From contig OZ024743.1 of NCBI GenBank assembly GCA_964016885.1, positions 56,172,001-56,236,000 of the forward strand: DNA of 64,000 bases, written 5' to 3'. Source of the stretch: Eledone cirrhosa. Lineage: Eukaryota. Positions 11,866 to 12,736 of this stretch are shown here, piece by piece. The notes beneath the pieces were generated by a model that did not search any database, was not told the origin of the DNA, and saw only the letters and a list, made by a program, of their open reading frames with translations. Numbering within the stretch: the first letter of the stretch is position 1; each line of letters opens with the position of its first letter. The translations under genes were made by a program, and so were the position numbers.

Positions 11866-12736
11866 CATTATGAAGAGAGAAGAAACATTTAGATATAATT
11901 AGTAATAAAATGTATCATACCTAAACTGCTCCTAAATTCCTCGACTACGTAGTTTCGTGGCATAAACAAAAACAATATATCATAAAGATATAGAGTCCTT
12001 GCGAGGTCTGGTTCAACTGAATTGGTCTGTCCCGGTCATTCATTGAGCAACATCGGTGAAGTTGGCACCCTTAACTCACAGTTGGGTGCGGATGCATTCA
12101 TGTATATATGTGTGTGTCCGCATGTATCTGTGTGTTTCTAAATATATTGTTAATAACTCCCTCTGGTCGAGCAATCTTTGAAGTGTGGGGACAACTGGAA
12201 AGCTTCCATTACTCATACTTCTCGCCTTCTTCACCACCTCTTCTGCGGCCTCGATATGAATACCCCCTCCGCCTCCGTGGTATTTTCTTCGAGGTTATAA
12301 GAGGCTTAGCTCTGTTTCTCGACCGTTATATCGCGTGACTATCTCCCCCTCCGCCTTCTGGGATTCTTTCTCACGTCGTGTAGACGCGTTCTTGAGACTA
12401 GTAAAATGAGGTATCCTCTTGATAAGTCGGCAGACCTCGCAAGGACTCTATATCTTTATGATATATTGTTTTTGTTTATGCCACGAAACTACGTAGTCGA
12501 GGAATTTAGGAGCAGTTTAGGTATGATACATTTTATTACTAATTATATCTAAATGTTTCTTCTCTCTTCATAATGTATTTTTAACTCTGATACTGGTTCA
12601 GTCTGGTTCAACTGAATTGGTCTGTCCCGGTCATTCATTGAGCAACATCGGTGAAGTTGGCACCCTTAACTCACAGTTGGGTGCGGATGCATTCATGTAT
12701 ATATGTGTGTGTCCGCATGTATCTGTGTGTTTCTAA

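What the first reader, a model, noticed from the sequence alone, without database searches (positions are those of the whole stretch)
12414..12503. U3-A8 core hammerhead with branched stem II inside an ORF-less Penelope-like cassette
The core reads TTGATAA: C3 and G8 both changed, which keeps the 3-8 Watson-Crick pair known from the hammerhead active structure. That double change suggests selection rather than decay. There is a 5-bp stem I TCCTC/GAGGA, a palindromic stem III ACTACGTAGT, a GUC site, and a 59-nt stem II domain with two small hairpins (CCT-cgca-AGG; TATATC-tttat-GATATA). The 884-bp host cassette has inverted and direct repeats but no recognisable ORF.
Basis: partly seen in the sequence, partly recalled or inferred. 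Interest (0 to 1): 0.8.

Follow-up and report, generated by a model that had tools for sequence, protein, structure and literature searches.

The report
Self-cutting RNA in mobile repeat family
This is one of thousands of copies of a small gene-less mobile repeat carrying a hammerhead-type RNA motif, predicted to cut itself, whose swapped core base pair is shared by the whole family and is already known from other animals; it likely spreads by borrowing enzymes from Penelope-like retrotransposons.

Summary
The motif is real: a type I hammerhead with a U3-A8 core at 12414-12503. It is not a private double mutation. About 5,900 copies in this genome match the flanks; 99 of 100 listed carry the same core, and no C3-G8 version was found. 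Three older subfamilies keep U3-A8 while position 7 and the stems change compensatorily, which points to selection on an inherited fold. The branched stem II is wrong: helix II is one long unbranched hairpin with an internal loop that may form a 5-bp pseudoknot with the strand upstream of stem I. The host is a non-coding 591-595-bp tandem retroelement (non-LTR retrozyme) inserted in (AT)n. It has two fixed 3' ends 165 nt apart, and all 23 assignable two-armed insertions use one of each. An abundant autonomous Neptune-type family in the same genome also has a U3-A8 hammerhead and the same two-end rule, so it is the likely helper. Natural U3-A8 hammerheads, retrozymes and Penelope tails are all published. 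Cleavage, expression and circles are untested here. Verdict: new member of a known kind, with a useful handle on Penelope integration.

The parts
11806..11862 (.). (AT)n target tract, left side
   Evidence: same context at nearly all 55 loci printed
11862..12010 (-). Inverted, 5'-truncated arm (149 nt) ending at fixed 3' end e1; holds only the 3' half of the ribozyme
   Evidence: joined to the forward arm by a 5-nt overlap
12006..12743 (+). Forward arm, 738 nt = one 595-bp unit plus 143 nt, ending at fixed 3' end e2
12407..12411 (+). UGAGG, proposed 5' strand of a pseudoknot with the helix II internal loop (inferred)
   Evidence: 89 of 108 distinct clan motifs can form 5 of 5 pairs; no repeated double change
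12414..12418 (+). Stem I, 5' strand
   Evidence: 95% paired, 3 of 5 pairs with changes on both sides
12419..12425 (+). Hammerhead core box U3-U4-G5-A6-U7-A8-A9
   Evidence: family consensus; position 7 varies T/A/G 83/20/5 among 108 motifs
12426..12484 (+). Helix II domain: proximal helix with one bulge, asymmetric internal loop, long unbranched distal hairpin (12439-12475)
12435..12439 (+). CCUCG in the internal loop, proposed 3' strand of the pseudoknot (inferred)
   Evidence: conserved in all four subfamilies
12485..12498 (+). GAAA box, 10-nt palindromic helix III, C17; predicted cut between 12498 and 12499
   Evidence: palindrome kept in three sequence forms, central pair 36 CG / 24 UA; duplex -12.9 kcal/mol, no hairpin on its own
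12499..12503 (+). Stem I, 3' strand
12560..12578 (+). Fixed 3' end e1, 80 nt after the predicted cut site (pyrimidine tract then AU patch)
   Evidence: 37 of 83 arms end here
12579..12743 (+). 165-nt tail between e1 and e2; e2 at 12743 (and 12148 in the first unit)
   Evidence: 39 of 83 arms end at e2
12737..12876 (.). (AT)n target tract, right side

Best explanation
The motif is the type I hammerhead of a high-copy, non-coding 591-595-bp tandem retroelement with a family-wide U3-A8 core, which likely self-cleaves as a dimer and is likely copied into (AT)n tracts by the enzymes of an autonomous Neptune-type Penelope-like element. Shown: family-wide U3-A8, covarying helices, tandem units, (AT)n context, variable 5' ends, two fixed 3' ends, one of each per two-armed insertion. 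Inferred steps: (1) a multi-unit transcript pairs two palindromic helices III and cuts after GUC (about 0.7); (2) a UGAGG/CCUCR pseudoknot docks helices I and II and may offset the weaker U-A core pair (about 0.5); (3) unit-length RNA is ligated to a circle, or the uncut multimer is used directly, as template (circle about 0.55); (4) a Neptune-type GIY-YIG/RT protein cuts both strands of (AT)n and each DNA end primes reverse transcription at a different fixed site of the same template, e1 and e2; the two cDNAs either meet head to head by microhomology (two arms) or one is lost (about 0.65). This window's copy has one whole ribozyme only, and read-through RNA would pair its inverted arm with helices II-III, so it is probably a dead-end copy.
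For: Copy number and consensus: 7,272 and 5,914 exact pattern matches, controls 0; 99 of 100 listed cores TTGATAA, 1 TTGATGA; whole-genome single changes 11 at position 3 (all A8) and 13 at position 8 (all U3), none C3-G8. A search aimed at C3 boxes gave 43 matches; every G8 match was an upstream look-alike box, none at the real box. In loci found by a downstream DNA query, 19 of 20 motifs with a readable box were U3-A8, 1 C3-A8, 9 more were truncated or unreadable. Between four subfamilies (53-80% alike) 0 of 13 core columns but 42 of 77 other columns differ, Fisher p 1.3e-4. Structure: 91.9% of cells paired, 15 of 34 pairs with changes on both sides, 0 of 500 shuffles as high, slid controls 36-47%. 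The two central palindrome bases covary although they cannot pair within one molecule. Insertions: of 55 loci, 26 are inverted two-armed; 23 have both ends assignable and all 23 are e1+e2 (two are near-duplicates; 0.5^22 = 2.4e-7); single arms 12 e1, 13 e2; 5' ends are spread over the unit with no pile at the cut site; arms reach 2,907 nt. Units within an insertion differ by 0-7 (median 1, 24 pairs) against median 13 between insertions (606 pairs). Helper: a 938-aa frame with RT and GIY-YIG matches and a CX4CxxC linker, flanked by two U3-A8 hammerheads; 6,267 matches, 100 of 100 listed U3-A8; its 3' ends lie about 76 and 141 nt after the cut site, 7 of 7 assignable two-armed insertions mixed, 2 unassignable; e1 spacing and end motifs resemble those of the retrozyme.
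Against: No cleavage, expression or circle was shown. Published activity is often poor: Penelope minimal hammerheads cut weakly even as dimers (PMC4209133); 8 of 9 frog retrozyme dimers did not cut in vitro (10.64898/2026.07.22.740005); in a pairwise mutagenesis of one hammerhead only the G-C swap rescued the 3-8 pair (PMC9901934); in a lizard Penelope element hammerhead mutants did not affect insertion in vitro (PMC11167929). RNAalifold did not recover the fold (8 pairs, -1.04 kcal/mol) and the window motif folds no better than shuffles (z -1.04). The pseudoknot has no repeated compensatory change (1 sequence each at 2 pairs) and some sub-lineages break 1-2 of its pairs. Rows of alignment A1 were picked by a core-like pattern and one subfamily is shifted by one column, which inflates the Fisher contrast. 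No sequence homology to any autonomous element was found: blastn of the unit against 50 GIY-YIG loci hit only a neighbouring retrozyme copy and simple repeats, and tblastn of the Neptune protein hit 1 clan locus, a separate neighbour. Circle and homogeneous multimer templates predict the same within-array identity.
Confidence: 0.78

Rival explanations
1. The element is mobilised by Penelope enzymes from uncut multi-unit transcripts; the hammerhead fold is kept as a protein-binding or protein-assisted structure and its cleavage is not needed for spread.
For: No 5' ends pile at the cut site and most arms run through it; many copies with one ribozyme or none; in vitro lizard data show unprocessed RNA as main substrate and a protein-assisted ribozyme (PMC11167929).
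Against: All 13 catalytic core columns and a dimer-forming palindrome are kept across subfamilies 53-80% alike, which is expected for catalysis; circles would also give no 5' pile.
Confidence: 0.13
2. The ribozyme is inactive; U3-A8 is two old neutral changes carried along by successful master copies.
For: Within the young family identity is about 97-98%, so fixation there shows nothing; low activity of U-A swap in one published scan.
Against: Only positions free to vary in hammerheads (7, stems by compensation) differ between subfamilies; the same pair is fixed in a second abundant family and published in flukes.
Confidence: 0.05
3. Helix II is a branched three-way domain with two small hairpins.
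For: The CCT/AGG pairing can be drawn in the window's subfamily.
Against: Pair probability 0.00, 9.4 kcal/mol worse; 52% paired in relatives, equal to shuffles.
Confidence: 0.02
4. The arrays are a satellite spread by DNA-level recombination or slippage inside (AT)n, not by reverse transcription.
For: Head-to-tail units embedded in microsatellites.
Against: Fixed 3' ends, random 5' truncations, head-to-head inversions with short overlaps and dispersal as short arrays are marks of target-primed reverse transcription.
Confidence: 0.02

Closest known systems
U3-A8 hammerheads of Schistosoma mansoni Penelope-like elements (PMC4209133; parts 1-2 of 4 of the text and part 2 of supplement file 2 read) and natural U3-A8 variants in PMC3088659 (section 8 and passages read)
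   Same: Same core swap, same UUGAUAA and UUGAAAA boxes, short helix I, type I topology, link to Penelope elements.
   Different: Here there is no extra base between A9 and G10.1, helix III is a 10-nt palindrome rather than absent, and helix II is a 59-nt domain with an internal loop and possible pseudoknot.
Animal non-LTR retrozymes (PMC7229834, passages; bioRxiv 10.64898/2026.07.22.740005, parts 1-3 of 5)
   Same: Non-coding tandem repeats with one type I hammerhead per unit, GC 42%, short arrays, co-occurrence with Penelope elements.
   Different: Unit 591-595 bp is above the 170-400 nt first described but inside the 51-972 bp range of the preprint; expression and circles untested here; no pLTR homology to an autonomous element found; two fixed 3' ends were not mentioned in the passages read.
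Penelope-like element insertion anatomy: inverted 5'-truncated arm and optional tail (PMC8557442 and PMC3846280, passages; PMC11167929, parts 1-2 of 4)
   Same: Head-to-head arms, tail at one end only, (TA)n targeting, two internal reverse-transcription start sites downstream of the hammerhead.
   Different: Tail is 165 nt (65 nt in the local Neptune family) against 30-40 nt in print; the one-of-each rule is counted here as 23 of 23; ends fall on AU patches that match the (AT)n target.
Pseudoknot-stabilised hammerheads (PMC3088659, passages)
   Same: A 4-6-bp pairing between the helix I and helix II regions positions the two helices.
   Different: Here the proposed partner sits in an internal loop of a long helix II and lacks covariation support.

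Membership tests
Type I hammerhead ribozyme | Core boxes with a Watson-Crick 3-8 pair, GAAA and UH site | tested here: met
   U3-A8 is a published natural variant
Type I hammerhead ribozyme | Three helices around the core, helix I open, supported by covariation | tested here: met
Type I hammerhead ribozyme | Match to an Rfam hammerhead model | tested here: not met
   none among 15 matches to E 10; expected for a 59-nt helix II and variant core, and not a defining biological feature
Type I hammerhead ribozyme | Helix I-helix II tertiary contact | tested here: inconclusive
   candidate pseudoknot conserved (89 of 108 with 5 of 5 pairs) but not covarying
Type I hammerhead ribozyme | Self-cleavage at the predicted site | not testable with these tools
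   needs an in vitro assay
Non-LTR retrozyme | Non-coding tandem repeat with one type I hammerhead per unit | tested here: met
   36 full units of 585-607 bp between successive sites; no frame of 110 aa or more
Non-LTR retrozyme | At least two consecutive complete ribozymes (criterion for an active copy) | tested here: not met
   this window's copy has one whole ribozyme; many other copies have two to five, so the family meets it and this copy does not
Non-LTR retrozyme | Expression as linear and circular RNA | not testable with these tools
   no run on record as RNA was available to test it
Non-autonomous Penelope-like element | Fixed 3' ends with optional tail, 5' truncation, inverted arm, microsatellite target | tested here: met
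Non-autonomous Penelope-like element | Sequence homology to the pLTR of an autonomous element | tested here: inconclusive
   none in 50 GIY-YIG loci, out of 10,597 candidates in the genome; only end spacing and short end motifs are shared
Neptune clade (candidate helper L081) | RT, then CX2-5CxxC linker, then GIY-YIG, flanked by hammerhead-bearing pLTRs | tested here: met
   (RT 28 bits, just under Pfam cut-off 29.6; GIY-YIG over cut-off); linker definition from PMC8557442; no tree built, so Nematis is not excluded

The most novel reading that the evidence does not exclude
A circular 595-nt RNA with a pseudoknot-stabilised U3-A8 hammerhead parasitises a Neptune RT-endonuclease dimer that primes both ends of one double-strand break at two different fixed sites, 165 nt apart, on a single RNA molecule. 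The strict one-of-each rule would then be the genomic trace of an asymmetric two-active-site integration mechanism general to Penelope elements, and long-helix U3-A8 retrozymes would be a large class missed by current ribozyme screens.
Probability: 0.3. Interest if true: 0.62.

Novelty: new member of a known kind. Interest (0 to 1): 0.36.

Why it matters
The core swap itself is known. The value lies in scale and tractability: thousands of young copies and three older subfamilies give a natural covariation set for a U3-A8 hammerhead, including a testable pseudoknot. The 23-of-23 pairing of two fixed 3' ends, repeated in a candidate autonomous helper, turns the qualitative Penelope 'tail at one end' into a rule that a reconstituted reaction can test, and gives a concrete retrozyme-helper pair, a link so far argued from co-occurrence and pLTR similarity.

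Tried and rejected
Rfam over the whole window listed only microsatellite-driven microRNA-type matches in the 150 of 381 rows shown and no hammerhead in the cassette. No tRNA in 11000-14000, so no tRNA-derived SINE head. No RNA holder listed among 6 runs; contigs of 4 runs showed no core variant at 5% and one 620-nt contig that closes on itself, which a tandem array explains as well as a circle, so neither is used as evidence. RNAalifold gave no usable structure. A canonical-looking box 12 nt upstream of the real box in subfamily D was tested as the true core: it gives at best 4+3 (once 1+4) pairs against up to 7+6 for the U3-A8 register (18 of 118 motifs have it), so it was rejected as the main fold. 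The closest autonomous partner by sequence was sought and not found. Lunse et al. (PMC5785218) is not held and was not read. Two look-ups of earlier scan findings returned nothing.

Full report
Observation. The window sequence shows a complete type I hammerhead at 12414-12503: stem I TCCTC/GAGGA, core TTGATAA, a 59-nt helix II domain closed by G-C, GAAA, the palindrome ACTACGTAGT and a GUC site with C17 at 12498. It lies in an 882-bp cassette (11862-12743) between two (AT)n tracts, made of an inverted 149-nt arm and a forward arm of one 595-bp unit plus 143 nt, joined through a 5-nt overlap. No stop-free frame of 110 aa or more lies inside. The genome is 3.0 Gb in 1,796 contigs; that it is a cephalopod is my guess from its repeat content and comes from no call.

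Is U3-A8 the consensus? Yes. The 3' half of the ribozyme has 7,272 exact matches and the flanks of the core 5,914, with 0 for reversed controls. Of the 100 cores listed, 99 are TTGATAA and 1 TTGATGA. Whole-genome searches for deviations gave 11 copies changed at position 3 (all A8) and 13 at position 8 (all U3); none is C3-G8. A looser search for C3 boxes upstream of this type of helix III gave 43 matches, in which every G8 match was a look-alike box upstream of a U3-A8 (once G3-A8) box. Fixation inside a family whose copies are about 97-98% alike says nothing about selection, so older relatives were collected.

Older subfamilies. A divergent neighbour in L014 led to 141 matches of a sister type, 144 matches with other palindromes and a more distant group. 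I aligned 64 of 110 distinct motifs and the window (left out: junction artefacts, most single mutants that had been searched for on purpose, near-duplicates) as A1. Four subfamilies are 53-80% alike between groups; 0 of 13 core columns and 42 of 77 other columns differ between them, and position 7 varies, as is allowed in hammerheads. The contrast is inflated by pattern-based picking and a one-column shift of subfamily D; an anchor outside the core gave 19 of 20 readable boxes U3-A8, 1 C3-A8, with 9 further motifs truncated or unreadable. Stem I, helix II and helix III covary: 91.9% of cells paired, 15 of 34 pairs changed on both sides, 0 of 500 shuffles as high, slid controls 36-47% (counts are of related sequences, not events). 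The palindrome occurs as ACTACGTAGT, ACTGCGCAGT and ACTGTACAGT; its two central bases covary although they can pair only between molecules, which supports the dimer fold described for such ribozymes (PMC4209133).

Helix II. The small CCT/AGG hairpin is not supported (pair probability 0.00; 52% paired, 341 of 500 shuffles as high). The domain is a proximal helix, an asymmetric internal loop and one long hairpin. The loop carries CCUC(A/G) in all subfamilies and UGAGG lies just upstream of stem I; 89 of 108 distinct motifs can form all five pairs and 14 four. Changes are wobble-type or breaking, not compensatory, so the pseudoknot is a proposal. Such pseudoknots are known to speed hammerheads (PMC3088659, passages). 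Free folding gives no support of its own: z -1.04 and RNAalifold failed.

The host element. Successive ribozymes lie 585-607 bp apart (36 units, commonest 591; GC 42% in the unit folded). In 55 loci (40 fetched and 15 of the first 30) 76 of 83 arms end at one of two points, e1 (80 nt after the predicted cut; 37 arms) or e2 (245 nt; 39 arms), and run into (AT)n; 5' ends are spread over the whole unit without a pile at the cut site; arms reach 2,907 nt. Of 26 inverted two-armed insertions, 23 have both ends assignable and all are e1+e2; 3 are cut off or interrupted; two of the 23 are near-duplicates. The window's copy follows the rule and was not counted. Units inside an insertion, including opposite arms, differ by a median of 1 against 13 between insertions, so both arms come from one template type. 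A cut linear monomer cannot be the template, since most arms cross the cut site; a circle or an uncut multimer can. The sample is from the start of one contig and requires an intact ribozyme part.

Candidate helper. The genome holds many GIY-YIG elements (10,597 candidates, 150 scored). One family has a 938-aa frame with RT and GIY-YIG matches and a CX4CxxC linker, between two pLTRs that each carry a small U3-A8 hammerhead; that motif has 6,267 matches, 100 of 100 listed U3-A8. Its arms end about 76 or 141 nt after the cut site, with 7 of 7 assignable two-armed insertions mixed and 2 unassignable. Its e1 distance and both end motifs resemble the retrozyme's. Another autonomous family has a C3-G8 core and one more locus a TTGATAA core. 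No extended homology between retrozyme and any autonomous element was found, so the pairing is inferred.

Comparison with print. Natural U3-A8 covariation was reported in PMC3088659 (section 8), which also states that such ribozymes had been shown active in vitro. PMC4209133 found it in Schistosoma Penelope elements with about 1,300 hits, and its supplement lists UUGAUAA and UUGAAAA boxes (supplement file 1 could not be searched). Non-LTR retrozymes are described in PMC7229834 (passages) and linked to Penelope pLTRs in bioRxiv 10.64898/2026.07.22.740005 (parts 1-3 of 5; its supplements were not seen). Inverted arms and a 30-40-bp tail often at one end only are in PMC8557442 and PMC3846280; PMC11167929 ties the tail to two internal RT start sites and finds the ribozyme dispensable for insertion in vitro. 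Results against assumed activity: weak cleavage of Penelope hammerheads, 8 of 9 retrozyme dimers inactive, and only the G-C swap rescuing the 3-8 pair in one scan (PMC9901934, passages). PMC6765202 was seen in passages. Searches listed no paper whose title or abstract start describes this family, a 165-nt tail or a counted one-of-each rule; only open papers were searched and repeat databases were not available, so this is weak.

Verdict. Real, family-wide and probably functional, but a new member of known kinds: a U3-A8 type I hammerhead in a non-LTR retrozyme with Penelope-type insertion anatomy. The branched stem II should be dropped. The long tail, the strict pairing of ends, the candidate Neptune helper and the possible pseudoknot are the parts worth testing. 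Interest 0.36.

Noticed in passing
L081 (G000:C1:145868500-145876500, minus strand) and L261-L290: Abundant young Neptune-type family with a compact U3-A8 hammerhead (6,267 matches), two 3' ends about 65 nt apart and one of each in 7 of 7 assignable two-armed insertions; the frame upstream of the 938-aa frame appears shifted.
   Followed up: partly
L133, L142, L144, L146-L149, L159 (subfamily D): A canonical-looking core box lies 12 nt upstream of the U3-A8 box, like a short tandem duplication of stem I plus core; it contains the proposed pseudoknot strand and pairs worse as a ribozyme register. It could be a relic of how the core was swapped, or chance.
   Followed up: partly
window 11712-11770 (+): Second hammerhead-like motif about 100 bp left of the cassette, core CTGATGG, short hairpin helix II, near-palindromic helix III; no match in the loci fetched; probably a decayed copy of another family.
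   Followed up: partly
window 16205-16330 (+), 52838-52890 (+), 53070-53130 (-): Three more C3-G8 hammerhead-like motifs, each with relatives in other fetched loci; the first has a 94-nt helix II domain.
   Followed up: partly
window 7297-7638 (+), 8827-9900 (+), 34768-39684 (-): A GIY-YIG-like C-terminal fragment resembling L091, an RT fragment, and a two-frame LINE-like element with a 1,153-aa frame (labels from my reading of the translations, not from a family search).
   Followed up: no
L148 upstream of the ribozyme; window 12263-12274 and 12345-12356: The unit contains an internal sub-repeat of about 75-82 nt that is expanded to about six copies in one subfamily D insertion.
   Followed up: no
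L023 and L026 (G000:C1:19.62 Mb): Two near-identical two-armed insertions 2.5 kb apart, a local duplication or assembly repeat.
   Followed up: no
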